A stretch of DNA of 64,000 nucleotides, from positions 49,107,847-49,171,846 of the forward strand of contig NC_057711.1 in assembly GCF_004010195.1 (NCBI RefSeq), written 5' to 3'. Origin of the DNA: Chiloscyllium plagiosum. Its lineage: Eukaryota. The position numbers and the translations under genes are program-made. The notes under the pieces are model-generated. The model worked only from the letters and a program-made list of their open reading frames with translations, searched no databases and was not told the DNA's origin. Shown piece by piece: positions 1 through 62,555 of the stretch. Within the stretch, counting starts at the first letter, position 1; each line of letters begins with the position of its first letter.

Positions 1-1000
1 AATAAAAGGAAGAGCCCCAGACTCATCCATACGAACAACTCAAAACACACCTCTGAGTAGGAGCAGTCATGGGCTTCCGTGTATTCATTGTCAAGGCCTT
101 CGTCTTCACTGTCCTCCAGTGCGGAGACATAATCTATCTAGATTAGGTTTGGGGTCACATTCTGGTGAGAATAGCACTGGCACAGGCATGTAACTAGAGG
201 AAGAAAATACAGTTGAGATCTTAGATGTTTGGGAGATTGCTGAAGAACAGGACTGTACTGAACCCAGTACAGTTGATGAGCCTCTGGACTTGGCCAATGT
301 TGAACCAATGGCGATATAAAGATGTGCAGGCAAATAACATAGGTCCCAGAGATCTCATTGAGGGTGAGCTGCTGGAAAAGCGCAGCAGGACAGGCAGCAT
401 TCATGAAGCAGGAAAATTGACATTGCAGGCAAAAGTGTTGATTTTCCTGCTTCTCGAATGCTGCCTGACCTTCTGTGCTTTTCCAGTACCTCACTCTCGA
501 CTCTAAATCTCCAGCATCTGCAGTCCTCACGTTTTCCCAGAGATTTCATGCAGACTGTATTGAATGTCACAGGAGTCTATCTAAGCTTTGTCTGACATCA
601 TGACTCTAACATGCCAGCAAGTGGCTACCTCCATCAATTGGCTGGCAGCTGCTATGGAAAGCTAGGCAACTGGAGGACAAAGGACCTCAACCTCCAGCAG
701 GGTGCCCAATTCCCTCAAGATGCAAAGGAGATGCCATTCTGCACCATTAAGTGGGAAGAGTGACAGCCTGGCACTCAGAGATTGTTATCGTAGGACACTC
801 CAGAATTGCCCTGCCTGTCATGTCTCCTCTACTAGGAGCCCAAAGGCCTCCATCAAATCAGGATGCGGATGCCGCATCTGCATTTGTACGGAAGTCCTCT
901 ATCAGCCCTCTGAGTCCCAGATGACTAGAGGATGTCTCCAAACCCATCTAAGGTAAACTGACAAAACAGATTTGCTCAACTTCAACTGCAGCTGCCAAGG
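1..1000 (+). mobile_element. Decayed 3' part of a Harbinger accessory (Myb/SANT-protein) gene region
   Basis: Relatively GC-rich, low-complexity coding-like remnant (e.g. ...TEPSTVDEPLDLA...). It faces the Harbinger transposase remnant at 2270-2845. No diagnostic domain lies in this stretch, so the assignment is by context. Confidence 0.4.
359..534 (+). mobile_element. Short fold-back insertion of a PLE terminal repeat (family A), old copy
   Basis: Inverted arms gctggaaaagcgcagcagg... / ...ccttctgtgcttttccagt plus the family tail tctccagcatctgcagtcctcac. TSD tcccagagat(c/t)tcat at 344-358 and 535-549. Confidence 0.85.
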
Positions 1001-1602: not shown

Positions 1603-2238
1603 TCATAGAGTCAGAGAGTCATAGAGATGTACAGCATGGAAACAGACCCTTCGGTCCAACCTGTCTATGCCGACCAGATATCCCAACCCAATCTAGACCC
1701 ACCTGCCCACACCCGGCTCATATCCCTCCAAACCCTTCCCATCCAAATGCCTCTTAAATGTTGCAGCTTGTTCAGCCTCTCCCTGTAGCTCAGATCCTCC
1801 AACCCTGGCAACATCCTTGTAAATATTTTCTGAACCCTTTCAAGTTTCATAACATCTTTCTCATAGGAAGGAGACCAGAATTGCCCGCAATATTCCAACA
1901 GTGGCCTAACCAATGTCCTGTACAGCTGCAACATGACATCCCAATTCCTGTACTCAATACTCTGACTAATAAAGGAAAGCATACCAAACACCTTTTTCAC
2001 TATCCCATCTACCTTTGACTCCACTTTCAAGGAGCTATGAACCCGCACTCCAAGGTCTCTTTGTTCAGCAACACTCCCTTCGGATCTTACCATTAAGTGT
2101 ATAAATCCTGCTAAGATTTGCTTTCCCAAAATGCAGCACTTCGCATTTATCTGAATTAAACTCCATCTGCCACTTCTTAGCCCATTGGCCCATCTGGTCC
2201 AGATCCTGTTGTAATCTGAGGTAACTCTCTTCGCTGTC
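1603..2238 (-). mobile_element. CR1 LINE 3' fragment with internal deletions
   Basis: ORFs encode CR1 RT C-terminal motifs (WQMEFNSDKCEVLHFG, LYRTLVRPLLEYC.QFWSP); tail (tcatagag)n. Confidence 0.93.
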
Positions 2239-2269
2239 AGGTTTGCTTGTGCATGTGTGCCTTGTCTCA

Positions 2270-7405: not shown

Positions 7406-8220
7406 CCCACCACAGAACACACCAGATGGCCTCCTTCTTTAGAGACCGCAATTTCCCTTCCCACGTGGTTAAAGATGGCCTCCAATGCATCTCGTCTACA
7501 TCCCGCACCTCCGCCCTCAGACCCCACCCCTCCAACCCGTAACAAGGACAGAACGCCCCTGATGCTCACCTTCCACTCTACCAACCTTCGCATAAACCAA
7601 ATCATCCACCGACATTTCCGCCACCTCCAAACAGACCCCACCACCAGGGATATATTTCCCTCCCCACCCCTTTTCACCTTCCGCAAAGACCTGGGGAAGA
7701 CAGTGTATTATATCCAGTAAATGTGAAATACTTTAGAAGCAGTATTTTCCTCAACATCAAGATACAGTTTTATATTCAGTTGATGGAAGAGCCCTCTATT
7801 CCAACCCTTATAACCCCTCATACAGCCACCTTATGCTCATCCTACATTCACAGTCATAACTGCTTATGGCCCATCATTCCTCTCATGACCCCGACTCCCC
7901 TGACCATTACCCTGGGTCCCCTGACCATTACCCCGGGTCCCCATGACTTGTCCGGACTTGTCCGACCTGCCTATCTCCTTTTCCACCTATCCACTCCACC
8001 CTCTCCTCCCTGACCTATCACCTTCATCCCCTCCCCCACTCACCCAATTGTACTCTATGCTACTTTCTCCCCACCCCCACCCTCCTCCAGCTTATCTCTT
8101 CACGCTTCAGGTTCACTGCCTTTATTCCTGATGAAGGGCTTTTGCCCGAAATGTCGATTTTGAAGCTCTTTGGATGCTGCCTGAACTGCTGTGCTCTTCC
8201 AGCACCACTAACCCAGAATC
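7406..8220 (+). mobile_element. Composite Penelope-like insertion: ORF piece (7406-7691), unrelated filler, then 3' terminal repeat
   Basis: MASFFRDRNFPSHVV...NKDRTPLMLTFH...IIHRHFRHLQTDPTTRDIFPSPP is a PLE thumb/linker region. 7940-8220 resembles the 3' end at 30370-30620. It interrupts a minus-strand LINE B tail. Confidence 0.85.
8128..8155 (+). ncRNA. Minimal hammerhead ribozyme core
   Basis: CUGAUGA-A-GGGC-UUUU-GCCC-GAAA-UGUC. Confidence 0.65.
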
Positions 8221-13661: not shown

Positions 13662-13900
13662 GCCTATCACCTTTACCCCTTCCTCTATCCATCTATTGCA
13701 CTCCCAGCTACCTTCCCTGCAGCCCCACGCCCTCCCATTTATCTCTCCACCCCCGAGGCTTCCAGCCTCATTCCTGATTAAGGGCTCCTGCCTGAAACGT
13801 TGATTTTCCTGCTCCTTGGATGCTGCCTGACCTGCTGTGCTTTTCCAGCGTCACTCTAATCTTGACTCTGATCTCCAGCATCTGCAATCCTCACTTTCAC
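13662..13900 (+). mobile_element. PLE family A 3' terminal repeat without an inverted arm
   Basis: Homologous to 30430-30660; mutated ribozyme core ctgattaagggctcctgcctgaaacgtt at 13774-13801. Confidence 0.85.
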
Positions 13901-15061
13901 CAAATAAATAAGATTCAGCCTTCTGAATGACTGCTGCCCACAATTTTAACCTTGCAACATAAAACACATTTTATCCCTGCCTTTTTCTAAAGGCAGGAAT
14001 AATTATAATAACATAACTTAATCATCCCATTACTTGGATCATGGTGAAATTGACCCTCTGATTATCAAGCGCATCACATGTACCTTGGAAGGCACTCATT
14101 CAAATATCATCACTTGGGCACTTGATGTTAAGAAATTTATAATTGAATGTTTTCAGTGAAATGATAATGTTTCTTTGCTCTTGGTCACAAACCTCTGACT
14201 TTCTCCCTCCTGAAGAACATTAGAATTCATTTTGTTGCATCCAAATTTCACTGCTTATCTTTGTAATACAGTCTCTTTTAGACTTTGTTATGTGTAAGGG
14301 CATTGAGGATGTGAGGTTGAACCGGTGAACAAATGCACTACACAGTCACTTGAAAACCTAATCTACTTCTGCTACCTGTGGTTCAGTCAGGTACCAGACG
14401 CTCTGTATATTTCTTCATAATATTTATAATAAGTCAAACCATTACAATGGCAGAGAGAGGGATGTCTCAGAGCAAATAAAATGTAGCTTTTCGGTCATCA
14501 GAACATGATACTAATGATATCTAATCCCCTCCAGGCCTTTCTCTGTCTGCTGTCTCAGATAAAAGATTTGATCGAAACATGACTTCCCCAGTGAAATCCA
14601 AACAAAGTATTTTGCAGTTTGGTGCCTACCATGTCTCCTGGCCAAATGTAACATTCTGTGCAATAGATAGGCAAAGAAGATGCAAAGGTAGGAAGATTTC
14701 ATCTCCCCACTCGGTACAGCAAAATCATAAACTGCTAAAAAGATCAATGATTCTATTGCACTAAATGCACATGTGAAAGCAAAGTGTAACCTCCCTATAT
14801 TCATGCTTGTAAACATTTATGTTAAAGTACATTGAGATCACTTCACAAATTTTTGTTTGCAACAAGGTCAGTTTAAGACCCCATGTTTATCATACGATCC
14901 ATCTGATTTTTTGAGGATACAAATAAGAATCAATCCTGAGGTGCTTATTATGCTATTAATTTTTTGTGTATTCTATGTTTCAAATAGATGATAATCACAC
15001 AGAAATAAAAAACAGGAGTATGTAATTTATCCCACCAATTCACCATTTCGTGGGTGATTTT

Positions 15062-20560: not shown

Positions 20561-21463
20561 AGTGGACAGCAAAGAAGGTTACCTCAGATTACAAGGGGAT
20601 CTTGATCAGATGGGCCAATAGGCTGAGAAATGGTGGATGGACTTTAATTTAGATAAATGCGAGGTGCTACATTTTGGGAAAGCAAATCTTAGCAGGACTT
20701 ATACACTTAATGGTAAGGTTCTAGGGAGTGTTGTTGAACAAGAAGAACTTGGAGTGCAGATTCATAGCTCCTTGAAAGTGGAGTCGCAGGAAGATAGAAT
20801 AGTGAAGGAGGCATTAGGTATGCTTTCTTTTATTGGTCAGAGTATTGAGTACAGGAGTTGGGAGGTCATGTTGTGGCTGTACAGGACATTGGTTAGGCCA
20901 CGGTTGGAATATTGTGTGCAATTCTGGTCTCCTTCCTATCGGAAAGATGTTGTGAAAGTTGAAAGGTTTCAGAAAAAATTTACAAGGATGTTGCTAGGGT
21001 TGGAGGATTTGAGCTATAGGGAGAGGCTGAACAGTCTGGGGCTGTTTTCCTGGAGTGTCAGAGGCTGAGGGGTGACATTATAGAGGTTTATAAAATCATG
21101 AGGGGCATGGATAAGATACATAGACAAAGTCTTTTCCCTGGGGTGGGGGAGTCCAGAATTAAAGGGCATAGGTTTAGGGTGAGAGGGAAAAGTTATAAAA
21201 GAGACCTAAGGGGCAACTTATTCACGCAGAGGGTGATATTTGTATGGAATGAGCTGCCAGAGGAAGTGGTGGAGACGAGTACAATTGCAACATTTAAAAG
21301 GCATCTCGATAGGTATATGAATAGGAAGGGTTTGGAGAGATATGGGCCGGGTGCTGGCAGGTGGGACTAGATTGGGTTGGGATATCTGGTTGGCATGGAC
21401 GAGTTGGACTGAAGGGTCTGTTTCCATGCTGTACATCTCTATGACTCTATGACTCTATAACTC
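20561..21463 (+). mobile_element. CR1 LINE 3' ~0.9 kb, relatively young
   Basis: ORFs 20637-21068 and 21098-21370 are the CR1 ORF2 C-terminus split by a frameshift; (ctatgact)n tail. Confidence 0.95.
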
Positions 21464-22305
21464 AAGACTGGGCATCCATGAGGCACTGTGGCTATCAACG
21501 GCAGCAGAATTATACTCAAGCACAATCTGAAATCCATATTACTTTGAGTTTTAATACAATCTGCAACCTCATGGCCCAGCATATCCCCTACTCCATCATT
21601 ATCAGCAAGCCAAGAGATCAATCCAGATTTAATGAAGACTGCAGGAGGGCATTCTAGGAACAGAAATGGGCATACGTAAAACTGTGGCATCATCCTGGGG
21701 AAGTTACAAGACAGCACTATTTGCATGCCAAACAGCATAAGCTGTGATTGATAGATGATGCTGAGTGATTTCACTGCCAATGCCTCTGCTGTTCTGCAAC
21801 ATCTAGTTGTAAATAGTCATGGACAATTATATCGCCCACTGGAGGAGGAGGCTCCACAAATATCCCTAATCTCAATTATGGGGAGCCCTGCACACCAGTG
21901 TCAAAGATAAGGCTGAAACATTTACAAAGATTTCAGCCAGGAGTCCCAAGTGGGTGATCCGTCTTGACATCATCCAAGCATCACAGATATCAGCCTTCAG
22001 CCAATTCAGTTCAATCCTGTGATATCCAGCTGAAACAACTGGAAACGGCAAAGGTTATGGGCCCTGTTAACATTCTGATAATAACACTGAAAACTTGCAA
22101 TGTAGAGCTTGCTGTGTCCCTAACCAATCTGTCCAGTGCAACTATAACATTGGCATCTTTCTGATAGTAAAAAAAATTGCCCAGGTACACTCAGTACACA
22201 AAAAGTAGGAGAAACTGAGCTAATGACAGCTCATCAATCTGCTTTTGATCATCAGTAAAGTGATGGAAAGATGATATCCAACAGTACTTAACTTCTCAAT
22301 ATTGG

Positions 22306-23595: not shown

Positions 23596-23827
23596 AAAGC
23601 AAATTACTGTGGATGCTGGAATCTGAAACCAAAAGAGAAAATGCTGGAAAACCTCAGCAGGTCTGGCAGCACCTGTAAGGAGAGAAAAGAGCTGACGTTT
23701 CGAGTCTAACTGACCCTTTGTCAAAGCTTTGACAAAGGTCAGTTAGACTCAAAACATCAGCTCTTTTCTCTCCTTACAGGTGCTGCCAGACCTGCTGAGG
23801 TTTTCCAGCATTTTCTCTTTTGGTTTC
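23596..23827 (-). mobile_element. Near-perfect palindromic PLE family B insertion
   Basis: ~102-bp arms (23624-23726 / 23727-23828) with no loop (centre aagctt), a ~28-nt unpaired tail, and a perfect 15-bp TSD accttcccaaggata (23581-23595, 23828-23842). Confidence 0.9.
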
Positions 23828-23919
23828 ACCTTCCCAAGGATACCTAGTTTCAGGTATAAAATGCTGACCCAACCAGTGAAGTCCACGTCCACTGAACACG
23901 TTTTAAAAAAGAATGTCAA

Positions 23920-25995: not shown

Positions 25996-26199
25996 GTCGA
26001 AGAGTATGGTGCTGGAAAAGCACAACCAGTCAGACAACATTCGGGGAGCAGGAGAGTCAACATTTCGAGGCTCCTAATGAAGAGCTTATGCTCAAAACGT
26101 CAATTCTCCTGCTCCTCAGATGCTGCTTGACTGGCTGTGCTTTTCCAGCACCATACTCTTCGACTCTGATCTCCAGCATCTGCAGTGCTCACTTTCTCC
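25996..26199 (+). mobile_element. Fold-back PLE family A insertion
   Basis: Arms gtcgaagagtatggtgctggaaaag / cttttccagcaccatactcttcgac; decayed core ctaatgaagagcttatgctcaaaacgtc at 26074-26101; no clear long TSD. Confidence 0.88.
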
Positions 26200-26629
26200 C
26201 ACAAGAAAACAATAACCCAGGCAAATTAATACTAAGCTATATGAACTCTACAGATTACCATTACTGTGGCCTTGCTTGCAATTTACATCATGTATCATAT
26301 GTTGTTTCTTTTGTCCCCTCCTTTCGAGAAGTAATTGCACATTGGATTGCAATTCCATGGATGTTGATAGTTATCTAGTAAATTTATTAACCTGAGAGTG
26401 GGCATCGTGTATTGATAGGGCATCGTGTAGTAAGATAGGTAATACTGCACAACTAACCATTGAACTAACTAATTCAATGCATGTCATGCACATTTTCCAG
26501 CAGGGTTGCTGGGAAATAATCAGAAGTACAATCCATGTGTAATTATTGCCTGCTCCCCAGCCACCCAAAACTTTGTAGTCCAAAGATCAGGACAATCCAG
26601 GACAAAGCAGTCTATTGGATCGGCATTTT

Positions 26630-27030
26630 AAGCACTCATTGCTTCCACCACTGAAGTACAGTGACAGTAGGTGTGTACCATCTACAAGATGTGCTGCAGG
26701 AGCTCACCAAGGTTCCTTCAACAATACCTTCCAAGCTTCTACCCAGAAGAACAAAAATAGCAAACATATGGGAACATTGGCAATTACAAATTCCACTCCA
26801 AGTTACAGATCATCCTGACTTGATTCCGTTCCTTCGTTGGGGCTGTGTCAAAATCCTGGAACTCCCACCCTAACAACACTGTGGACAAATCTACATTAGG
26901 GGGAAGGCAGTGTGCTCAAAGGTAGCTTCACCAGCACCTTTCAGAGGAAATTAAAGATCCAGAAAAATATGCAGCAAAATATGTTGGCCCAGCCAATGAT
27001 TCTCACTTCCCATAAAAGAATTGAAATAAA
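26630..27030 (+). mobile_element. LINE family B 3' fragment
   Basis: gtgtgtaccatctacaagatg...ctcaccaagg...tcaaaatcctggaactccc; homologous to 4150-4560. Confidence 0.75.
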
Positions 27031-28769: not shown

Positions 28770-29034
28770 TTAATGGATGTGGGTTTTCTAGATATACCAG
28801 CATTTATTGCCTATTCCTAATTGCCCAGAGTGCAGTTAAGAGTCAATCACATTTCTGTGGGTCAGGAGTCACATGTTCGCCTACCTAAAGTACATGAGTG
28901 AACTAGATAGGTGTTTCTGACCATGTACAATGGATTCATGATCATCATTAGATCTTTAATTCCAGATTCTTTATTGAATTCAAATTCTACCATCTGCCAT
29001 GACAGGATTTGAACCCAGGTCCCCAGGACATTAG
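28770..29034 (-). mobile_element. SacSINE1/Deu-SINE-like element; its 5' head continues at 30676-30720 after the nested PLE
   Basis: B-box gggttcaaatcc on minus (~29005-29016); tail ccagcatttattgcctattcctaattgccc shared with LINE family B. Confidence 0.75.
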
Positions 29035-30660
29035 AGTCAAGAGTGTGGTGCTGGAAAAGTACAGCAGGTCAGGCAGCATCTGAGGAGCAGGAGAATCGAC
29101 GTTTTGGGCAAAAGCCCTCCATCAGAATGAGGCTGTGAGCCAAGGCAGTGGAGAAATAAATGGGAGGGGGCGTGGGGCTGAGGGGAAGCTAGCCGACAGT
29201 GTAATAGGTAGGTGGAGGTGGGGGTAATGATAATAGATCAGAAGGGATGGTGGAGCAAATAGGTGGGAAGGAAGATGGACAGGTAGGATAGTTCAAGAGG
29301 GCAGTGCCAAGCTGTAAGGTTGAAACTGGGATAAGGTGGGGGGGAGGGGAAATTAGGAAACTGGTGTAATCCAAATTGATGCCATAGGATTGGACGGTCC
29401 CTAGGCAGAAGATGAGGTGTTCTTCCTCCAGGAAGTGGAAATGGAGGAGGCCCAGCACCTGCATGTCCTCAGCAGAGTGGGAGGGAGGGGTTGAAGTGTT
29501 CCACCATGGGGGGTGGGGTTGGTTGGTGCGGGTGTCCCAGAAATGTTCTCTAAAGTGCTCTGTGAGAAGGCGTCTAGTCTCCCCAATTTAGGGGAGACCA
29601 CATCGGGAGCAACGGATACAGTAAATGACATGTGTGGAAGTGCAGGTGAAAATGAGATGTAGAAGGCTCCTTTGGGGCCTTGGATGGAGATGAGAGGGCA
29701 GGTGTAGGCACAGGTTTTATAGTTCCTGCAGTGGCAGAGGAACGTGCTGGGAGGAGACTTCCATATACATTGTATCATCTTTCGCCATTTCCACCACCTA
29801 CAAACGGACCCCACCACCCCTATCCGCTTTCCATAAAGACCGTTCCGTGTGCGACTACCTTGTCAGGTCCACACTCCTCAACAACCCAACCTGCCCTCCA
29901 GACACCTTCCCCTGCCACCGCAGGAATTGCAAAACCTGCACCCACACCTCCCCCCTCACCTCCGTCCAAGGCTCCAAAGGAGCCTTCCACATCCACTAAC
30001 ATTTCACCTGCACTTTCACACATCTCATTTACTGTATCTGTTGTTCCTGATGCAGTCTCCTCTACATTGGGGAGATAGTATGCCTACTTGCAGACTGCTT
30101 CAGAGAACATCTCTGGGACACCCACACCAACCAACCCCACCACCCTGTGGCCGAATGCTTCAACTCCCCCTCCCAAGCCGCTGAGGACATGCAGGTCCTG
30201 GGCCTCCTCCATTGCCACTCCCTTACCACCCGACACCTGGGGGAAGAATGCCTCATCTTCCACCTCGGGACCCTCCAACCCTATGGCATCAATGTGGATT
30301 TCACCAGTTTCCTCATTTCCCCTCCCCCACCTTATCCCAGTTTCAAACTGCCAACCTAGCACCGCCCTCATGACCTGTCCTACCTGTCCATCTTCCTACC
30401 CACCTATCCGCTCCCACCCTCCCCTCCGACCTATCACCATTACCCCCCACCTCCAGCCACCTATCGCACTCTCAGCTATCTTCCCCCAGACCCACCTCCC
30501 TCCCATTTATCTCTCCACCCCGAGGCTCCCAATCTCATTCCTGATGAAAGGCTTTTGCCTAAAATGTCGATTTGCCTGTGCCTCGGATGCTGCCTGACCT
30601 GCTGTGCTTTTCCAGCAACACACTCTCGACTCTAATCTCCAGCATCTGCTGTACTCACTT
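29035..30660 (+). mobile_element. 1.6-kb inverted Penelope-like element: minus arm 29035-~29755, plus arm ~29756-30660, GIY-YIG endonuclease pseudogene in both arms
   Basis: TFPCHRRNCKTC zinc knuckle and FTCTFTHLIYCICCS*CSLLYIGE...FREHL (GIY-YIG). Perfect 15-bp TSD tccccaggacattag (29020-29034, 30661-30675). Confidence 0.93.
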
Positions 30661-30974
30661 TCCCCAGGACATTAGCTGAGTTTCTGGATTAATAGTCCAG
30701 CAGTAGTTCCCCTCGGCTGTTGCTGCTCCATTTTAAAATATTGAATGTGAAATTACTCCTGTATAAATACTGAACTCTTTCACCTGAAACTCCACTCCAG
30801 ACATTTTTTTAACATAAGTCAACAGGTCAATTTCTCCTTGAAAGTTTTTTCAAGAATTTCAAGTAGACATTTTGAATATTTGTGTATTGCTATCTCAAAT
30901 ATATAATGACAAGGTTAATTTTCTTTTGATATTACAATTTAGTTACAATGGGCTAGTTAAAGCATCTGCCAGAA

Positions 30975-33560: not shown

Positions 33561-34246
33561 AGTAGCTGACCGACCACATCCAAGTCCATGTCCTTGACTT
33601 ACTGTGCTGGATCCTCCTAATCCAAAGTATTCTCCCTTGAATTGACTGAGGACTGCTGACAACCATGACAAGCTTCCTGGCTTCATGTACGCACTAAATG
33701 GCAAGGCAATGCTGCAGTATTGAGCCTGGTATCTTTGCCTAAGAACAATGCAGAATGACACAAGGTAAGGCAAGGCAGGGATGGGGTGAGCATCTGGGTA
33801 GGATCAAAATGAGTGAGCACTTAAGGCAAGCAAACAGCCCAGAGGTGCAACCTGATCCTGTCCATAAGACTGGTGCACGTCCTTCAGAACAAAGTGTCCT
33901 TGTCGTAGCATAACATTGAAAGTTGTCATCTCACACTGAGGTGCAGCATTGAAGTGCAGCAACATCCTGTAAGTGGGTCAGAGATATGCCAGGATGGTTC
34001 TTAGAGGCTGGTATATGTTGATGCCAATAAACATAGGTATGTGTCATAGCCACAGGGAGCATGTGGCTGTTGAATATGCCTACTGTCCCTCATGGATAAG
34101 CAGTGAGCTGTTGTCACCAGTTACCTGCTCTAACGTCTAGGTCTAGGATTCTCAGTGTTTGCTCATGGCAGGTTGTACAATGGAAAGCTACTTATTAATG
34201 AGGCAGGGTTTGCAGGAAATAAGTTTGTTGACAATAAATAATGACT

Positions 34247-34455
34247 GAAAATGTGTTGCTGGAAAAGCGCAGCAGGTCAGGCAGCATCCAAGGAACAGGA
34301 GAATCGATGTTTCGAGCATAAGCCCTTCTTCAGGAAGGGCTTATGCCCGAAACGTCGATTCTCCTGCTCCTTGGATGCTGCCTGACCTGCTTCGCTTTTC
34401 CAGCAACACATTTTCAGCTCTGATCTCCAGCAGCTGCAGTCCTCACTTTCTCCTC
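34247..34455 (+). mobile_element. Fold-back PLE family A insertion, young
   Basis: ~85-bp inverted arms; perfect 15-bp TSD caataaataatgact (34232-34246, 34456-34470). Confidence 0.92.
34306..34333 (-). ncRNA. Minimal hammerhead ribozyme core
   Basis: CUGAAGA-A-GGGC-UUAU-GCUC-GAAA-CAUC on the minus strand. Confidence 0.55.
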
Positions 34456-34536
34456 CAATAAATAATGACTACCTAGCACAAATATCACTTTGATGCCTGG
34501 AACTAAGTTAAGAGATGAAGTGAGTTAAATCAAAGT

Positions 34537-42296: not shown

Positions 42297-42515
42297 GAAA
42301 AATGTGGTGCTGGAAAAACACAGCAGGCCAGGCAGCATCCGAGGAGCAGGAGAATCGATGTTTCGGGCATAAGCCCTTCTTCAGGAAGCCTGAAGAAGGG
42401 CTTATGCCCAAAACATTGATTCTCCTGCTCCTCGGATGCTACCTGGCCTGCTGTGCTTTTCCAGCACCACATTTTTCAACTCTGATCTCCAGCATCTGCA
42501 GTCCTCACTTTCTCC
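42297..42515 (+). mobile_element. Fold-back PLE family A insertion with a ribozyme core on both strands
   Basis: ~90-bp arms with a 3-nt loop (cagg-aag-cctg); perfect 15-bp TSD tagatggggagggtt (42282-42296, 42516-42530). Confidence 0.92.
42357..42384 (-). ncRNA. Minimal hammerhead ribozyme core
   Basis: CUGAAGA-A-GGGC-UUAU-GCCC-GAAA-CAUC. The plus-strand twin (42390-42417) has GAAA mutated to AAAA. Confidence 0.6.
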
Positions 42516-43765
42516 TAGATGGGGAGGGTTCACAGAGCAAAAGACCAAGGGAGTGCTAATAATGGTAGAGGAGCGAGATTTAGAGACAGTGACTGAGGAA
42601 GAAGATGTGGCTGTGGAAATGAGTTTTGGTAAACACCTTTTCAAGCACTAGCAGCATACCCTCCCTATCTGTTACTTTGTTAATCACCGAAAAACCATCA
42701 TTTTCAAGCGCCATTCAGTTTCTGGAGAAGAATAATATTGGAACGTTCCTTTTGATTTTTTCCTCCAAAAATGCTACCAGATCTGAGTTTATCCAGCACT
42801 TTCTGTTTTTATTTTCATAATATATCTTTAATTCCTTTTGACATTACCACATTTTCTTTCCTCCAACATTGAATATTTTCTTCAAACCATCCATTCTGTC
42901 ATTCCACCTTATCCCACACTCACCTCCAATTTCCCTTCAAACCTTAACTGGTGAATTCAGAGTTTTTCATTGAGTGGTGACTATCTTATTTCCATGCATT
43001 TGTATGCCATTAAGTCCCCAACTCATGTTATTTGTATGTGATATCCAATTGGGCTCTCCTTCACCAAGAAACTACAGGGCACAAATTCCTGAAAACTGAG
43101 CAGTACCTGGCAACTGAAGCTCTCTGAATGCTTGTCCAATTCATGCTGCAATTGCTTTTTCATAACAGTTCCTGTGTATTCCATGGCCACCATCCTCCTC
43201 AACCCATCATCCACATACGACAGCATTGGTAAACTACAAGCCTCACCACATCACCATGCCTGCTCTCAAACTCAGGCACCGCTACAGCCCTTCAACAATT
43301 GACTTTGGAGCTCCAGGGCACCCATTACTTGCATGCTTCTGCACACAATGTACATCGACAATGTAGCTTTTGCGCTCACATGGACGGGTTCTCCCTACCT
43401 ACTCTATCCAACACACTAATGATTTTGAAAACCTCTATCAGCACTACTCTCAGTTTCTCTTCTTCAAGGAAAAAAGGCTCAAACTTTTGCTTTATTCCCA
43501 TAAGTGAAGTTTTCATCCCTGCAACCAATCCGGTAAACAACAATCTCTATGTTCGCATCTTTCCTACAATGTGGCAGCCAGAACAATATTCCAGCTGAAG
43601 TCTAATGACTGTCTTATCCAAGTTCAGTATCATCTCCTTGCTATTATAGTCTATGCACCTATTAATAAATACTGGATACTGTCTGGTTTACTTATTGTTC
43701 TGACCAGCTGTCATGCCAATCCAATGATCTATGCACAAATACATCCAGGTCCCTGTACTCCTGAA

Positions 43766-43913
43766 GGAGTAAAGCAGGTCAGGCAGCATCCTGGTGAAGG
43801 GATTATGCCTGAAACATCGATTCTCCTGATCCTTGGATGCTGCCTGACCTGCTGTACTTTTCCAGTATCACACTCTCTACTTCGATCTCCAGCATATGCA
43901 GTCCTCACTTTCT
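43766..43913 (+). mobile_element. PLE family A insertion with a very short inverted arm
   Basis: agcaggtcaggcagcatcc arm fused to core ctggtgaagggattatgcctgaaacatc; TSD c(c/t)ctgtactcctgaa (43751-43765, 43914-43928). Confidence 0.85.
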
Positions 43914-44536
43914 CTCTGTACTCCTGAACCCCTCTTTAGAATAGTAATTCTTCTTTTATGCTGTCTTTCATTTCCCTTCTGATTAATATGCATCATCCCT
44001 CACACTGCTCTGCATTGAACCTCATTTTCCATGAATCTGCTCACTCTACCACCTTGTCGATTTCTTTCTGTAGTTTCACATTGTCCTCCTCACAATTTAG
44101 AATTCTTACAAGTTTTTGGAAACTTTGAAATTGTCCCCTGCACACTCAGAACCAGATCATTAATATATATCAGGAAAACCAAGGGTCCCAATCTCAACTC
44201 AGAAGGAATTTTACTACAAATCTTCCTCCAACATGAAAAAAAATTAATTGACCATTACTCTCTGTTTCCTATCACTGAACCAATTTTGTATCCTATTGCT
44301 ACTGTTCTTTCTATTTCATGACGTATAACTTTCCTCACAAATCTGTGGCATTATACCAAATGCCACATCAACAGTATCAGCGTCATTAAGCCTTTCTGTT
44401 ACTTCTTTAGAATTTCATGCTGAATTTTCCCAATCAATCCACCATTTTTTCCATATATCTACAGATTCCATAATGAATAATTGTCTCTCAAAGCTTTCTC
44501 ATCACTGATGTGAAACTGACTGGCGTGTAATTGCTG

Positions 44537-44750
44537 TTAAAAAGTGTGACACTTTAAGAGCACAGCCAATCAGGCAGCATCCATGGAGCAGGAAAGTTGA
44601 CGGTTCAAGCATAAGGTCTTCATTCCTGATGAAGCGTTTATGCTTGAAACATCGACTCTCCTGCTCCTCAGATCCTGCCTGACCAGCAATGCTTTTCCAA
44701 TGTCACACTTTTTGACTCTGATCTCCAGCATTTACAGTCTTCACTTTCTC
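44537..44750 (+). mobile_element. Fold-back PLE family A insertion, old
   Basis: Arms aaaaagtgtgaca / tgtcacacttttt; CTGATGA at 44626-44632; TSD ctgg(cg/tc)tgtaattgctg (44520-44536, 44751-44767). Confidence 0.85.
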
Positions 44751-44986
44751 CTGGTCTGTAATTGCTGGGTTTAACCATATAACCATCTTAGACAAGTCCA
44801 TCATGGTTGCAATTCTCCAGTCTTCTCGCACCTCCCCTGAGTCCAGGGAAGACTGAAAGATTGTGGTCAGTGCCCATGCAATTTCCACTCTCACTTGTTT
44901 CAAAATAGTTCATGCATCTTATCCAGTTCTTGGTGCCTTGTAAACTTTAAATACCAAGAGTCTATCCAGAACTTCTGCCCTATCAA

Positions 44987-45991
44987 ATTAGTGCCTGGTT
45001 TTCCAAATGGTTTGGTACTGGATCCACTGTTGTTTATTGCTTATATAAACGATTTGGATGAGAATTTAGGAGGCATAGCTAGTAAATTTGCAGATGACAT
45101 CAAAATTAATGATATAGTTGACAGTGAAAAAGGTTATTTAGGATCACAAAGGGATCTTGATCAATTGGGCCAATGAGCTGAGGAGTAGCAGATGGAGTTT
45201 AATTTGGATAAATGCAAGGTATTGCATTTTGGTAAAGCGAACAAGGGCAGGACTTAAATAAATAATGGTAGGGCCTTGGATAGTGTTGTCAAACAGACAG
45301 AACTCGGGGTTCAGATACATAGTTCTTTGAAAGTTGCATCATAGGTAGACAGAATGCTGAGGAAGATGTTTAGCATGCTTACTTTCATTGCTCAGACTGC
45401 TGAGTATAGACGTCATGTTGAAGTAGTACAGGACATTGGTAGGACTTCGTCTGGAGTATTATATGCAGTTATGGTCGCCCTTTTACAGAAAATATATCAT
45501 TGAATTGGAGAGAGTTCAATGAAGATTTAACAGCTTATTGCTGGGATCGGAATGTTTGAGTTATAAAGCGAAGCTGGTTAGGCTGGGACTTTTTTCCCTG
45601 GAGGGTAGGAGGTTGAGGGGTGACCTAATAGAGGTTTATAAAATCATGAGGGTTATAGATAAGATAAATAGCAAATGTCTTTTCCCTAGGGTGGGAGAGT
45701 TCAAAACTAGGGGGTATATTTTTAAAATGAGAAGGGAAAGATCTATAAGGGACCTGAGGGGTAACCTTTTCACATAGGGGGTGGTTCAAGTGTGGAATGA
45801 ATTGCTGTAGGAAGTGGTGGATGCAGGTACAGGTATATCATTTAAAAGACATTTGGACAGATCTATGAATATGACATGTCTGGCAAAGGCAAATGGGATT
45901 AGTTTAGTTTGGGAAATTTGGTCGGCATGGATAAGTTGGACCAAAGGGTCTGTTTCCATGCTGTGACTCTATTACTCTATGTCTCTATGAC
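44987..45991 (+). mobile_element. CR1 3' ~1 kb
   Basis: LLFIAYINDLDENLGGIASKFADDIKI, RRLRGDLIEVYKIMR; ctatgact-type tail. Confidence 0.92.
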
Positions 45992-48499
45992 CAAGTTCCC
46001 ACCTCTGTCACCATGGCCTGTTAGCTTCTCTTGCTTTGATGAAAACAGATGCAAATTATTCACTTGCTGGGATGACAGCTAGGGGTTCCCCACATTCTTG
46101 TCCTATTTCAGCTCAGGGCTTCAACCATAATCAATCAGAAGCTTAGTTCTAACAGAGTCCCAGGATCTGCACCCTTACTGTCCAGGAATGGTGCCAGAGT
46201 CAGTCCTATAGGTCATGTGCAAGTGGTCTGGGGATTACAGGTACATTAATTGGGATGTTGTTGAGACATCAGTCAAAAGGGTGGTCCAGTTTTTCCTGTA
46301 ATGAGACTATGAGAGACACTGAGTAGTGGAAGTGGATGAAAAAAATAGTTAATGGACTGTTATAAAATGAATGATTATGAGTGGTTGAAAATATTGTCTA
46401 GAATCTTAACTTTTTTCACGAAGGTTGCAAACAAATAATGTTGAATGTTACGTTCCCAGGCTCACTTCGCCTGCACGAGCAAATTCAAAAATTGAATTCA
46501 GAGAGTACCTGATACCAATAGTACTTTTTTTACTTAACAAAGCTCCTTTCCATGCTAACTTAAATAAATAAATCTAAATAAATAAATAATATTTGTTGCA
46601 TTTTCACCACTGTACACCATGGCCAAAGTACTAATATAACCAATAAAGTCCTTTTTGGTGTTTCATTAATGCTACAATATGAAAAGCACAAGACTACATG
46701 TCATATTTTCCTTTTGGGAGGGGAATGACGATATCAATTCAAAATGTATTCATTGAAATGAATGGGGTGAATGTGAAATGTCAGCTGTGTTGACATCAGA
46801 GAAATAAATAAGCTTACCAAGTTCTGATCTGTTTTGTATGTGTTGTTATTCACCACAACAGATTTGTACATAGGTCAATATATTCTCTGTGCCAATACAG
46901 GTTGAAGTGATAATATTCATTCCAATTAAATATAAATACCATAAAATATGCTTTTTCAAGGGCTAAATCTAAGGTTACCTCTTGTATTTGTTGAATTAAG
47001 TTGAAAGAGTATTTGGAGGGCATACAAAAGGTACATGAAAAGGATTGTTCTGCAGATTCTTGGTTTGCAAGAGATCCACATCCAGAGGTTATGGCTTCTA
47101 TCACATGAGTGGATTCCTGAAGGTGTTTTTTTTAAATTGCACCAATTTCTGACAGCCCAAGATTCACAGCATGTCAATGGATGAATGCCAATGCTAACAC
47201 GTTGCCACAAACAATAATGGCGGTCTTTCAATCCTTCATGCTCAACAAGTTTAACTGAACAAATCCCCTGCTCCCATTGCTATAGCAACTCACATACGGG
47301 AAACAATTGTTACACAAGTGCATTATGAAGCAGTTTTCTGTGACAGAATATTCACTGACCAAAGGAAAACATTTCCTGACATGTTTCCCTCTACATATCT
47401 GAAACATAAGGTGAAAAGAATGGTCAGAATAGAACTTGGTTGGGCTTGTAAATAACATTTCGAGTGGTACTTATTTGATAGATTTTAATTATGTCAATAT
47501 AATCTGGCCCTCAGCAAACTATGCCTACTCACGTATCCTATGCATGTGCCCAAATCAAGCAGTCTTATAACAAAATAAGAATCCCTGTACCAAGGCTGGA
47601 TTATCTATTTAGCACAAAGCAGGTTATATTATAATTGTCTCATCATCTGTTTATCACCTTCTAGCCACAAAATGTAGTTATTTAAATTCTACTCATTATT
47701 TGATTGTAGTCTAAAAATAATTTTACCTCTTCATTTATGAGTCTTCCTTTTATCTCAGTGATTCCAAAACCCTTTACTGTGCCAATTATCATGAAGCAGC
47801 TTTTTTCCCCCTATATTATAAAGTAGCACTTTTATCCGTTTGAAAATTATGCTGAGAAAGTAACAGCTTTATTTTTCTTTCACAAGTTTTAATTTTCAAA
47901 GCAACTAACTGTGGTCAGATTGGAATTAGCAGCAGAGAAGGAATCTTTGTTCCACAGTTTATTAAAGAACGTGAGAACATCTGCATAATAACATGTGGCA
48001 CTAACCACAATGTGGCTGTGACAGGTAAGTGGGCCAGACAAAAAGACAAATTACCAGGTCATTTATTGAATTGCATATATGTTGCACCTTGTGACAGAAG
48101 ATTGTAGACAGTCCAAGTTGCCCTGTAAAATAGAAATCTTTCTGGTGTAGATACTTTCCTCAGGAATTATGCCATATAGTTTATATATAAACATTGGCCC
48201 TTAACCTTTTTGGTTTGAAAGCGATTTGAATCTTTCTCTTAGATAATTATTTTAACCTGGCTAAGATTGTGATGATAATGTTAGAGGCATAATATAATTA
48301 TTGTCAGAGAAAAGTACTGCACCCGCCAGGTATTTGCAAATAGCACAGAAGTAATCGTTACATTTCCATTTTGCAGCAAAACAAGCCTTACAAAGCCCAA
48401 ATATTTAATCTCTTAACTATAATGCAAAGTTCACATAAAGCATTTCATTGTAAGTTCCAATGCAAGTTAACAAGGGCACAAAAAAAAAGCAATATCTTA

Positions 48500-55322: not shown

Positions 55323-55528
55323 CGGAGAAAGTGAGGACTGCAGATGCTGGAGATTAGACCTGAAAATGTGTTGCTGGAAAAGCGCAGTGGGTCAGGCAGC
55401 ATCCAAGGAGCAGGAGAATCGACGTTTCGGGCATGAGTTCCTGAAGAAGGGCTCATGCCCGAAACGTCGATTCTCCTGCTCCTTGGATGCTGCCTGACCT
55501 GCTGCGCTTTTCCAGCAACAATTTTCAG
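55323..55528 (-). mobile_element. Fold-back PLE family A insertion, youngest-looking copy
   Basis: Tail ggagaaagtgaggactgcagatgctggaga on the left; near-identical arms; TSD cactcataagga (55311-55322, 55529-55540). Confidence 0.92.
55441..55468 (+). ncRNA. Minimal hammerhead ribozyme core, intact
   Basis: CUGAAGA-A-GGGC-UCAU-GCCC-GAAA-CGUC; all core residues present, GUC cleavage triplet, palindromic ACGU in place of helix III. Confidence 0.7.
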
Positions 55529-60872: not shown

Positions 60873-61030
60873 TTTGATTCCAATAATATGATAATATTTG
60901 TAGTTATTGAAGAGTGAACAGTTTACCAAGATCTAATCTTGGGATCCTCTTGATTCAACTTGAGTCTTTTATGTACTTTCCTGTATTCCTATCTGAAACA
61001 TGTGCCTGCACATAAGTTTTGCAAAGCTAA

Positions 61031-61757
61031 TTACAAGTGGAGTTCCGCAGGGATCAGTTCTGGGTCCTCTGCTGTTTGTAATTTTTATTAATGACTTGGA
61101 TGAGGGAGTCGAAGGGTGGGTCAGTAAATATGCAGATGATGCGAAGATTGGTGGAGTTGTGGATAGTGAGGAGGGCTGTTGTCGGCTGCAAAGGGACTTA
61201 GATATGATGCAGAGCTGGGCTGAGGAGTGGCAGATGGAGTTCAACCCTGCCAAGTGTGAGGTTGTCCATTTTGGAAAGACAAATAAGAATGCGGAATACA
61301 GGGTTAACGGTAGGGTTCTTAGTGAGATGGAGNNNNNNNNNNNNNNNNNNNNNNNNNNNNNNNNNNNNNNNNNNNNNNNNNNNNNNNNNNNNNNNNNNNN
61401 NNNNNNNNNNNNNNNCGAAGGATGAGGGGTGACTTGATGGAGGTTTATAAGATGATCAGAGGAATAGGTAGAGTAGACAGTCAGAAACTTTTTCCCCAGG
61501 TACAGCAGAGTGTTACAAGGGGACATAAATTTAAGGTGAAGGGTGGAAGGTATAGGGGAGATGTCAGGGGTGGGCTCTTTACCCAGAGAGTGGTGGGGAC
61601 ATGGAATGCGCTGCCTGTGGGAGTGGTAGAGTCAGAATCTTTGGTGACCTTTAAGCGGCAATTGGATAGGTACATGGATAGGTGCTTAAGCTAAGACAAA
61701 TGTTCGGCACAACATCGTGGGCCCAAGGGCCTGTTCTGTGCTGTATTGTTCTATGTA
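61031..61757 (+). mobile_element. Young CR1 3' fragment spanning an assembly gap
   Basis: SGVPQGSVLGPLLFVIFINDLDEGVEGWVSKYADDAKIGG...WQMEFNPAKCEVVHFG open without stops. Confidence 0.95.
61333..61415. other. Assembly gap (83 N)
   Basis: Run of n characters. Confidence 0.99.
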
Positions 61758-61819: not shown

Positions 61820-62555
61820 AAAACAAAAATAGAAGTTGCTGGAAAGACTCAGCAGATCTGGCAGCATCTGTGAAAAGAAATCGAAGAACTCCCACAGAAC
61901 TCTTATTTTTTTAAAAAAACCCACTGCCTCCAAGCTGATAATCCCCCAGCCCTTCTACCTCCTTCTGGAAATCCACAAACAGGGCTATCCTGGGCCGACT
62001 CATTGTTTCAGACTGTTCCTGCCCCACAGAACTCTTATTTAAAGAAGACCCCTTCGCCAGCTCCAACACTCTTTCTCCACCTGGACCCCTCTCCTTGGCC
62101 TTTTACCTGGACTCGATTTGTTCACTGAGAATTGTTCAGGTGACTTTGGTTACCTCATTTTCTCTGCACCCCACCTCACCCAATCCAACCTATCTCTCTC
62201 CAAACTGATTGCATTCCGTGTGCTTAGATCCAACCTTAACTGTGTTATTAAGCTGCTGATAAGGGTAGTGCTGGTGTAGTCTGACAGACTGACTTCTACA
62301 TGGTAAACGCTGAGTGCCAGCTCTCAGATACCTCCTCCAATCTTCCCCTGGACCATGACCCCACCATGGCACATCAGGCCATTGTATCAACGACAGTCAT
62401 TGACCTCATTTCATCTGGCAATCTTCCCCCTGCTGCCTCCAAGCTGATAATTCCCCCAGCCCTGCAGAGCTCTCTTCTACATCCTTCCAAAAATCCACAA
62501 ACAGGACCGCCCAGGCGACCCATTGTTTCAGCCCGCTCCTGCCCACAGAACTCTA
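61820..62555 (+). mobile_element. Decayed Penelope-like RT N-terminal region preceded by an inverted family B terminal fragment (61820-61880)
   Basis: ADKGSAGVV..TDFY..AECQLSDTSS...HDPT...DLISSG.LP; F(Y)ILPKIHKQDRPG.PIVSA are diagnostic PLE RT motifs. Confidence 0.85.

What the first reader, a model, noticed from the sequence alone, without database searches (positions are those of the whole stretch)
34247..34455. Family of ~150-220-bp fold-back insertions whose inversion point sits at the ribozyme
Seen: seven family A short copies (359, 25996, 34247, 42297, 43766, 44537, 55323) share one architecture: an inverted arm, a centre lying within or just 5' of the hammerhead core, a direct arm, and a constant ~30-35-nt unpaired tail (tctccagcatctgcagtcctcactttctcc). 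Each copy has a different centre sequence, so they are not clones of one MITE master. Established: PLE insertions often have a 5' inverted terminal repeat and a short 3' tail. Inference: reverse transcription repeatedly stops or switches template at the ribozyme, or the template is a short ribozyme-processed, retrozyme-like RNA. The products mimic MITEs and could be mis-annotated as DNA transposons or SINEs.
Basis: partly seen in the sequence, partly recalled or inferred. Interest (0 to 1): 0.7.

Follow-up and report, generated by a model that had tools for sequence, protein, structure and literature searches.

The report
Penelope strong-stop fold-back insertions
These short hairpin-shaped insertions are stumps of a known jumping gene (Penelope-like) whose ends pile up at one base just in front of its ribozyme, often with an extra G, which likely marks the capped start of the element's own RNA rather than a stop or a cut caused by the ribozyme.

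Summary
The fold-backs are real insertions of a Penelope-like retroelement (PLE) in a 3.56-Gb animal genome. In 1.66 Mb of unselected DNA there are 67 head-to-head pairs and 2 tail-to-tail pairs. Of 55 short fold-backs, 53 carry the tail on one arm only and all 55 centres differ, so this is not a MITE master.

Arm 5' ends hit a sharp wall at -8..0 from the hammerhead CUGA (mode -4).

Genome-wide, copies ending at -4 are preceded by G in 3,955 of 6,556 cases (26% expected); neighbouring end points show no G excess. A(-4) lies in an initiator-like TCATTC, with a conserved TTTATCT about 30 nt upstream.

Best reading: both nicked target strands prime reverse transcription at two internal sites, run off the capped RNA 5' end, and join by microhomology. 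The layout is published; I found the wall and extra G in no paper searched. This scan noted the wall, two-ended priming and a strong-stop reading earlier on other DNA. RNA reads could not test the start site.

The parts
34232..34246 (.). left target-site duplication (15 bp, exact)
34247..34336 (-). inverted, tail-less arm (ruler +88 to -3); carries the only complete CUGANGA...GAAAC core of this copy, with C3 at 34333
34334..34336 (.). junction: 3-nt GAA overlap between the end of the inverted arm (-3) and the start of the direct arm (+5)
   Evidence: read directly; the same junction type recurs in another subfamily
34334..34417 (+). direct arm (ruler +5 to +88)
34418..34455 (+). unpaired PLE tail (+89 to +125); in full-length copies of a sister subfamily the tail runs straight into the 5' part of the ORF
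34456..34470 (.). right target-site duplication
359..534 (+). short fold-back, arms end at +11/+25, TSD 344-358 and 535-549
25996..26199 (+). short fold-back, arms end at +19/-2, no clear TSD
42297..42515 (+). short fold-back, arms end at -3/-1, exact 15-bp TSD
43766..43912 (+). short copy with a ~26-nt inverted arm, direct arm from -2, 16-bp TSD
44537..44750 (+). older short fold-back, arms end at +3/-6, 17-bp TSD
55323..55528 (-). short fold-back in the opposite orientation (tail on the left), arms end at -3/+12, 12-bp TSD
29035..30660 (+). long fold-back of the same family, centred at about -649/-808 in the GIY-YIG-coding part, TSD 29020-29034 and 30661-30675; counter-example to a ribozyme-only centre
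13663..13901 (+). single 5'-truncated copy (-112 to +124) that passes the wall
7955..8208 (+). single tail-less copy (about -169 to +80) that passes the wall

Best explanation
The short fold-backs are insertions of a Penelope-like retroelement whose two arms start at two fixed points of the element and mostly end at one base just 5' of the hammerhead core; they likely form when both nicked strands of the target prime reverse transcription, each cDNA likely runs off the capped 5' end of the element's mRNA, and the two likely join by microhomology. Shown: family identity; TSDs; 3' ends clustered at about +88 and +124; tail on one arm only; the wall at -8..0 with mode -4; the G excess specific to -4; both arms of a copy sharing subfamily markers; the tail being internal to full-length tandem copies. 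Inferred: (1) A(-4) is a Pol II start in an initiator TCATTC, with a conserved motif at about -30; (2) the extra G is the cap copied as a 3' C on the cDNA; (3) RT uses the 5' pseudo-LTR of the mRNA, because in the anole PLE the RNA needed for insertion reaches into the ORF start beyond the initiation sites, so the main product is a 90-130-nt strong-stop-like cDNA; (4) twin priming from the two DNA ends followed by end joining gives the hairpin. The roughly 40% of arms that pass the wall would come from read-through transcripts of tandem copies or from initiation in the 3' pseudo-LTR. On this reading the ribozyme is a passenger at the start of the transcript, not the cause of the breakpoint.
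For: Wall: 109 of the 182 arms that reach 0 end in -8..0 (104 after removing 5 that are visibly long copies of an unreferenced subfamily); the mode is -4 with 21 arms; none of 62 arms ends over -18..-28. Genome-wide exact counts in the young subfamily: core 42,272; reaching -4, 24,005; reaching -14, 6,769 with a pattern 4 nt shorter at its 3' end. Base before A(-4): template C 17,449, G 3,955, A or T 2,601. G is thus 60% of the non-template bases, against 26% from base composition. Controls: for ends at -3, G is 14 of the first 100 listed; for ends at -5, 19 of the first 100 (hand counts); neither is above composition. Second subfamily set: G 56, A 44 in the first 100, p=0.003. Among 37 G-loci no shared upstream exon is seen, and only 1 is a long copy with a point change. 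In 6 single copies (two of them one duplicated locus) the G lies inside the TSD overlap, as expected if a cDNA with an extra C paired with the target; in others it is untemplated. An extra 5' G from the cap marks full-length L1 insertions and can serve as microhomology (PMC11702581, passages). Initiator-like YYANWY at -6..-1 and T(T/C)AT(C/T)T at -29..-32 from A(-4) in 61 of 67 long copies, in all six clusters; the YYANWYY consensus is recalled. Twin priming: exactly one tail in 53 of 55; the tail-less arm is deeper by more than 2 nt in 28, the tailed arm in 14, and the two are within 2 nt in 13. The anole PLE protein cleaves and extends both strands and starts RT at two internal sites that bound the tail, and ribozyme-dead RNA inserts normally (PMC11167929, parts 1-2 of 4). 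Arm-to-arm identity has a median of 0.92 against 0.83 for random pairs, and loop II agrees in 22 of 29 (0.23 expected). In six full-length loci the pLTR and tail run directly into the ORF 5' part.
Against: The wall is about 9 nt wide, not one base. Ends at -3 (6,861) are as many as non-template ends at -4 (6,556), so trimming or microhomology must be invoked. In the 1.66-Mb sample the G excess rests on one subfamily group (10 of 13, against 1 of 8 in the others), and it is weaker in the second genome-wide set. Part of the G count can come from the partner arm or the target by overlap (about half of the first 20 loci). Of six full-length loci that keep an upstream pLTR, five begin upstream of -4 (-538, -185, -37, -35, -16) and one at +4; these belong to the subfamily with the weakest wall (8 of 20). 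A(-4), U(-2) and C(-1) are also helix I of the hammerhead, so their conservation does not prove an initiator. The mapped D. virilis Penelope start lies about 120 nt upstream of helix I (PMC2377424, section 15 and passages; PMC4209133, passages), so the coincidence is not general. The conserved -30 motif is not a consensus TATA box.
Confidence: 0.55

Rival explanations
1. The RNA has a discrete 5' end near -4, but it is made by processing (for example 5'-to-3' trimming up to the protein-bound hammerhead), and the extra G is a non-templated C that this RT adds at any run-off end. The twin-priming part is unchanged.
For: The wall coincides with the 5' edge of helix I (A-4 pairs with U+31; read from sequence). 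The anole hammerhead is protein-assisted. The wall is spread over about 9 nt.
Against: There is no G excess for ends at -3 or -5. An initiator-like motif and a motif at fixed -30 spacing are kept in six clusters whose sequence in between has diverged.
Confidence: 0.2
2. One reading: RT pauses or switches template at the folded or protein-bound ribozyme on a longer RNA, and the cDNA snaps back on itself to make the second arm.
For: Ends cluster at the hammerhead. Short self-complementary words around -7..+7 allow snap-back, and junctions such as that of 34247 fit it. Self-priming was proposed for inverted pLTRs (PMC3846280, passages).
Against: The ends lie on the 5' side, after the whole core has been copied; the rate on the 3' side (+26..+46) is background. 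Snap-back from the tailed cDNA needs the tailed arm to be the deeper one, but the tail-less arm is deeper in 28 of 55. A stall does not predict a position-specific extra G. The monomer folds weakly (z -1.1 to -1.7). Single-arm copies show the same wall.
Confidence: 0.12
3. The template is a short ribozyme-cleaved, retrozyme-like RNA (linear or circular monomer).
For: The minimal type I hammerhead core is conserved. Animal retrozymes derive from PLE pLTRs (bioRxiv 10.64898/2026.07.22.740005, part 1 of 5 and passages).
Against: There is no peak of 5' ends at +28 (3 of 280 arms). The copies span the cleavage site intact. Head-to-tail arrays of a fixed monomer were not seen in the 864-kb listing. 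Ribozyme-dead RNA inserts in vitro.
Confidence: 0.04
4. A non-autonomous master (SINE-like 130-nt unit or MITE-like hairpin) starting at -4 was amplified as such.
For: Very high copy number (42,272 exact core matches). Host RNAs carry whole fold-backs (strand-switch joints in RNA reads).
Against: 55 of 55 centres are distinct, with 52 junction types. Short and long copies share the same subfamily markers, and the wall appears in five of six groups. TSDs are 9-18 bp (median 14), and the tail is asymmetric. Three equally spaced pairs checked for clonality had different centres.
Confidence: 0.06
5. The wall is a splice junction: the template is a spliced RNA whose intron ends at helix I, as in D. 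virilis, and the G is the last base of exon 1.
For: In D. virilis the intron end maps to the 5' end of helix I (PMC4209133, passages).
Against: The bases before A(-4) are TC, not AG, in the main subfamilies. No shared exon sequence precedes the G in 37 loci.
Confidence: 0.03

Closest known systems
Inverted-pLTR insertions of endonuclease-bearing Penelope-like elements (Adineta Pen2a_Av, PMC3846280; general scheme in PMC8557442; passages read)
   Same: Head-to-head inverted 5'-truncated copy, 30-40-bp tail on one side, TSD, palindromes or overlaps at the inverted junction, initiator-like motif noted in the pLTR.
   Different: Here most insertions are only 90-220 bp and end at a fixed wall with an extra G. 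The published explanation is self-priming, possibly on an antisense template; the arm-depth counts here favour priming from both DNA ends.
Poseidon PLE of Anolis carolinensis in vitro (PMC11167929; parts 1-2 of 4 read)
   Same: Two internal RT start sites bounding the tail; both target strands cut and extended; hammerhead at the pLTR-ORF junction and dispensable for insertion.
   Different: The parts read do not describe fold-back stumps, a 5' wall or a transcription start at the ribozyme. In the anole element the ORF starts inside the hammerhead; here the long ORF appears to start after the tail (by eye).
Minimal hammerheads of metazoan PLEs (PMC4209133; passages read)
   Same: Minimal type I core with almost no helix III and a short helix I; mostly dispersed single motifs; pairs on opposite strands 100-700 bp apart were already noted and linked to truncated PLEs.
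   Different: No breakpoint map or mechanism in the passages read.
L1 twin priming and cap-derived extra G (PMC11702581; passages read)
   Same: Second RT primed from the other DNA end, TSD preserved, microhomology joint, extra 5' G when RT reaches the cap.
   Different: L1 inversions copy non-overlapping parts of one RNA (recalled). Here both arms copy the same 90 nt, giving a palindrome, and priming is internal with no poly(A).
Minus-strand strong-stop DNA of LTR retroelements (recalled)
   Same: Short cDNA primed near the 5' end of the RNA that runs off the capped end.
   Different: Primed by target DNA rather than tRNA, and integrated directly instead of jumping to the 3' end.
Non-LTR retrozymes (bioRxiv 10.64898/2026.07.22.740005; part 1 of 5 and passages)
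   Same: Non-coding, hammerhead-bearing, related to PLE pLTRs.
   Different: Retrozymes are tandem repeats with a hammerhead in each unit. These copies are inverted or single, and their ends do not match the cleavage site.

Membership tests
EN+ Penelope-like element (canonical, C-terminal endonuclease) | RT followed by a C-terminal GIY-YIG endonuclease in one ORF | tested here: met
   Long copies give RVT_1 at E=3e-4, below the curated cut-off on a 134-aa piece, upstream of a region whose Atlas neighbours carry GIY-YIG in 12-22% of members at scores 0.96-0.97. Pfam itself gave no GIY-YIG hit. YIDD and YIGET motifs are visible. All copies seen are broken.
EN+ Penelope-like element (canonical, C-terminal endonuclease) | Pseudo-LTR from partial tandems; optional 30-40-bp tail | tested here: met
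   Six full-length loci have pLTR plus tail joined to the ORF 5' part. 3' ends cluster at about +80-90 and +110-124.
EN+ Penelope-like element (canonical, C-terminal endonuclease) | Inverted 5'-truncated copy head-to-head, with TSD | tested here: met
   67 head-to-head against 2 tail-to-tail pairs; TSD found in 37 of 55, median 14 bp.
Penelope/Poseidon clade within PLEs | RT phylogeny; no zinc-finger-like linker of the Neptune type | not tested
   No tree was built. Copies carry a CxxCxxC stretch before the endonuclease, so Neptune is not excluded.
Minimal type I hammerhead | CUGANGA, stem II, GAAA, NUH, short helix I | tested here: met
   Motif read directly; helix I is 3 pairs plus one U-U. 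No Rfam hit, as expected for minimal forms.
Minimal type I hammerhead | Self-cleavage | not testable with these tools
   Needs a biochemical assay.
Non-LTR retrozyme | Tandem repeats of a monomer whose ends match the cleavage site | tested here: not met
   No end peak at +28; copies are single or inverted.
MITE (class II non-autonomous) | Many copies of one master with the same interior, symmetric TIRs and a short fixed TSD | tested here: not met
   55 distinct centres, one-sided tail in 53 of 55, TSD 9-18 bp.
Capped Pol II transcript 5' end (strong-stop reading) | Capped RNA starts at A(-4) | tested here: inconclusive
   The genomic extra G and promoter-like motifs support it. The one RNA run that laid showed only copies embedded in other transcripts and no start peak.

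The most novel reading that the evidence does not exclude
The dominant product of this shark-type Penelope element is an integrated strong-stop cDNA: RT starts in the 5' pseudo-LTR of a capped mRNA that begins exactly at hammerhead helix I, from both cut strands at once. The tens of thousands of stumps then form a fossil CAGE map that fixes the promoter, explains the inverted pLTR and one-sided tail of PLEs, and shows why only read-through transcripts of tandem copies can yield full-length elements.
Probability: 0.45. Interest if true: 0.7.

Novelty: new variant of a known kind. Interest (0 to 1): 0.52.

Why it matters
How PLEs get their inverted ends, and what the hammerhead does, are open questions in the papers read (PMC11167929, PMC8557442, PMC3846280). 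A wall at one base with a cap-like extra G turns this into sharp, cheap tests: CAGE at one position, and TPRT with capped or 5'-extended RNA. It argues that ribozyme cleavage does not shape the inserted copies. Practically, a rough extrapolation (55 in 1.61 Mb) gives about 10^5 hairpins per genome that repeat annotators could file as MITEs or SINEs, and that put long double-stranded RNA into host transcripts.

Tried and rejected
Rfam scan of the window: no family. Pfam on five window ORFs: nothing above cut-off. Search for shared sequence downstream of +124 among 124 dispersed copies: none; it appeared only in full-length tandem loci. RNA: no RNA holder was listed as on record. Raw single-cell poly(A) reads of run X21 laid on both strands, 89-96% running on into unrelated sequence, with no place where many molecules begin or end; X22 laid nothing. 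These reads are not used as evidence for or against the start site, and the organism of that run may not be the window's. A pattern with leading N did not return upstream bases and served only as a denominator. The alignment display was out of register by 2 and is not used. Searches stopped part-way; the missing parts were rerun. The Fisher test used 20 of 100; the hand recount is 19 and one search uses that. Three equally spaced pairs were checked as a possible clonal fold-back and rejected. A planned further 200 kb of sample could not be fetched, so the sample is 1.664 Mb. Literature searches that found no description of the wall or of an extra G in PLEs: (open-access library only; supplements not read, and those of PMC11167929 and of the bioRxiv preprint may bear on 5' ends).

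Full report
Setting. The window is G000:C2:49107847-49171846 of a 3.56-Gb animal assembly. That it is a shark-type genome is my inference from its size and repeats, and agrees with the scan's earlier notes. All positions are on a ruler where 0 is the C of the hammerhead CUGA, the cleavage triplet ends at +27 and the element ends at +124/125.

Observation. The seven copies are as described. Six have 12-17-bp TSDs; 25996 has none that I could find. The deeper arm ends at -6..-2 in six of the seven, and at +11 in copy 359.

Family. Extending upstream through 100 fetched loci gave broken copies of one ORF, with an RT region (RVT_1, E=3e-4, below cut-off) followed by a GIY-YIG-like region (Atlas neighbours at 0.96-0.97; motifs visible; no Pfam GIY-YIG hit). 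In six loci an upstream pseudo-LTR with its tail runs directly into the ORF 5' part, so the copies' 3' end is an internal point of a tandem template. This is an endonuclease-bearing PLE; the clade was not tested. At least six subfamily clusters differ upstream of the hammerhead.

Unselected sample. I analysed 1.664 Mb (the window, 200 kb beside it and 14 blocks of 100 kb placed without looking; 53 kb are N). Of 327 profile hits, 67 pairs are head-to-head and 2 tail-to-tail, and 10 of the 67 are centred well upstream. Of 56 short pairs, 55 were scored (one dropped for N). Exactly one tail is present in 53, a TSD in 37 (median 14 bp), and there are 55 different centres. The deeper arm ends in -9..0 in 43. 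MITE-style amplification is thereby excluded.

End map. From 350 local hits, 294 arms passed identity and length filters, and 14 next to N were dropped, leaving 280. End rates per nucleotide: +28..+46, 0.0037; +26..+30, 0.005; +9..+27, 0.009; +1..+8, 0.023; -8..0, 0.093; -40..-13, 0.0035. The mode is -4 (21 arms). Five arms scored in the wall are really long copies of an unreferenced subfamily, leaving 104 of 182. By group the wall takes 66 of 100, 29 of 51, 8 of 20, 5 of 7 and 0 of 3. Only 3 arms end at +28. The peak is therefore real but lies on the 5' edge of helix I, which RT reaches last.

Extra G. Whole-genome exact counts for the young subfamily: the core occurs 42,272 times. Copies reaching A(-4) are preceded by the template C 17,449 times, by G 3,955 times and by A or T 2,601 times. 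G is 60% of the non-template bases, against 26% expected. For ends at -3 (6,861 copies) G is 14 of the first 100 listed, and for ends at -5 (3,245 copies) 19 of the first 100; neither exceeds composition. A second subfamily set gives G 56 to A 44 (p=0.003). I fetched the first 37 of the 3,955 G-loci. One is a long copy with a point change, and none shares an upstream exon. In six single copies (two are one duplicated locus) the G sits inside the overlap with the TSD, and in the rest it is untemplated or shared with the partner arm or filler. This is how a cap-derived base behaves in L1 insertions (PMC11702581, passages). A(-4) lies in TCATTC (TTATTC or CCAGTC in other clusters), and a T(T/C)AT(C/T)T motif starts 29-32 nt upstream in 61 of 67 long copies, against 7 hits in 5,662 nt further upstream. 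These copies are related, so the count is of six clusters rather than 67 independent cases.

How the hairpin forms. The arms' outer ends are at about +88 and +124, each abutting one TSD copy. In the anole PLE, the protein cuts and extends both strands and starts RT at two internal sites that bound the tail, and the RNA must extend into the ORF start (PMC11167929). Snap-back of the tailed cDNA would make the tailed arm the deeper one, but the tail-less arm is deeper in 28 of 55, the tailed in 14, and they tie in 13. Two cDNAs primed from the two DNA ends and joined at short overlaps or fillers fit all three classes, and also the single-arm copies with or without tail. The two arms of a copy share subfamily markers (22 of 29, 0.23 expected), which points to one RNA or one source locus; later gene conversion is not excluded.

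Against. The wall is 9 nt wide. The G excess in the small sample comes from one group (10 of 13, against 1 of 8). Five of six full-length loci with an upstream pLTR start upstream of -4. Helix I alone could conserve the initiator-like letters. In D. virilis the start site lies about 120 nt upstream of helix I, where an intron ends instead (PMC2377424; PMC4209133). RNA reads could not test the start.

Comparison. The layout is published for PLEs (PMC3846280; PMC8557442), and opposite-strand hammerhead pairs were noted in 2014. I found no paper on the wall, the extra G or a strong-stop reading in nine searches of the open library. This scan's earlier agents reached two-ended priming, the fixed stop and, once, the strong-stop reading on other DNA. 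My reading was recorded before I looked, and those notes are not counted as support.

Verdict. A real, very abundant variant of a known kind of insertion. Run-off at the RNA's capped start with priming from both strands is the best-supported mechanism (0.55) and can be tested directly. Interest 0.52.

Noticed in passing
L159, L162, L173, L175, L180 (tail-ORF junction); window 34418-34455: The tail ends in a branch-point-like word, a pyrimidine run and, in several full-length copies, AG just before the apparent ORF start. It resembles a splice acceptor (consensus recalled); no donor was found between -4 and the tail by eye.
   Followed up: no
L282 and L283: Two fold-backs with arms ending near -92 (tailed arm) and -55 (tail-less arm), with similar but not identical joints; possibly a second preferred stop in one sub-subfamily.
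   Followed up: partly
L112:2755, L118, L123:2857: Long copies jump from -191, -165 or -105 straight to +13, +40 or +14, as if a long cDNA were joined to a short tail-less piece.
   Followed up: no
G000:C12 block 43623-44958 and G000:C2 block 26257-26739: Two unrelated loci share a -128/-57 tandem duplication in the 3' region, probably a subfamily variant.
   Followed up: no
L144 (element-sense 1337-1447): A short tail-less copy inserted, with its own TSD, into the ORF of another copy of the family.
   Followed up: no
L178, L170, L179: Near-full-length copies begin with an inverted piece made of the tail alone (about 10-35 nt).
   Followed up: no
long copies, 29-32 nt upstream of A(-4), e.g. 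window about 30505-30512: The conserved TTTATCT motif reads AGATAA on the other strand, a GATA-type site (recalled), at the TATA position.
   Followed up: partly
G000:C1 pairs such as 18547204/18547230: Perfect palindromic centres in which both arms end at -4 and overlap by AATT: 7 such pairs among the first 100 matches.
   Followed up: partly
window 23600-23834 and 61835-61868: Older, more diverged elements with weak similarity to the family's 3' end; 23642-23810 is itself hairpin-like.
   Followed up: no
window 1603-2239, 20561-21466, 45116-45995, 60969-61631: Fragments of another repeated RT-coding family, by eye CR1/L2-like LINE (recalled); Pfam found nothing on the one frame tested.
   Followed up: no
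L173:1179-1191 and L087:9013-9041: RNA reads with strand-switch joints at the wall show that whole fold-backs are transcribed inside host RNAs.
   Followed up: partly
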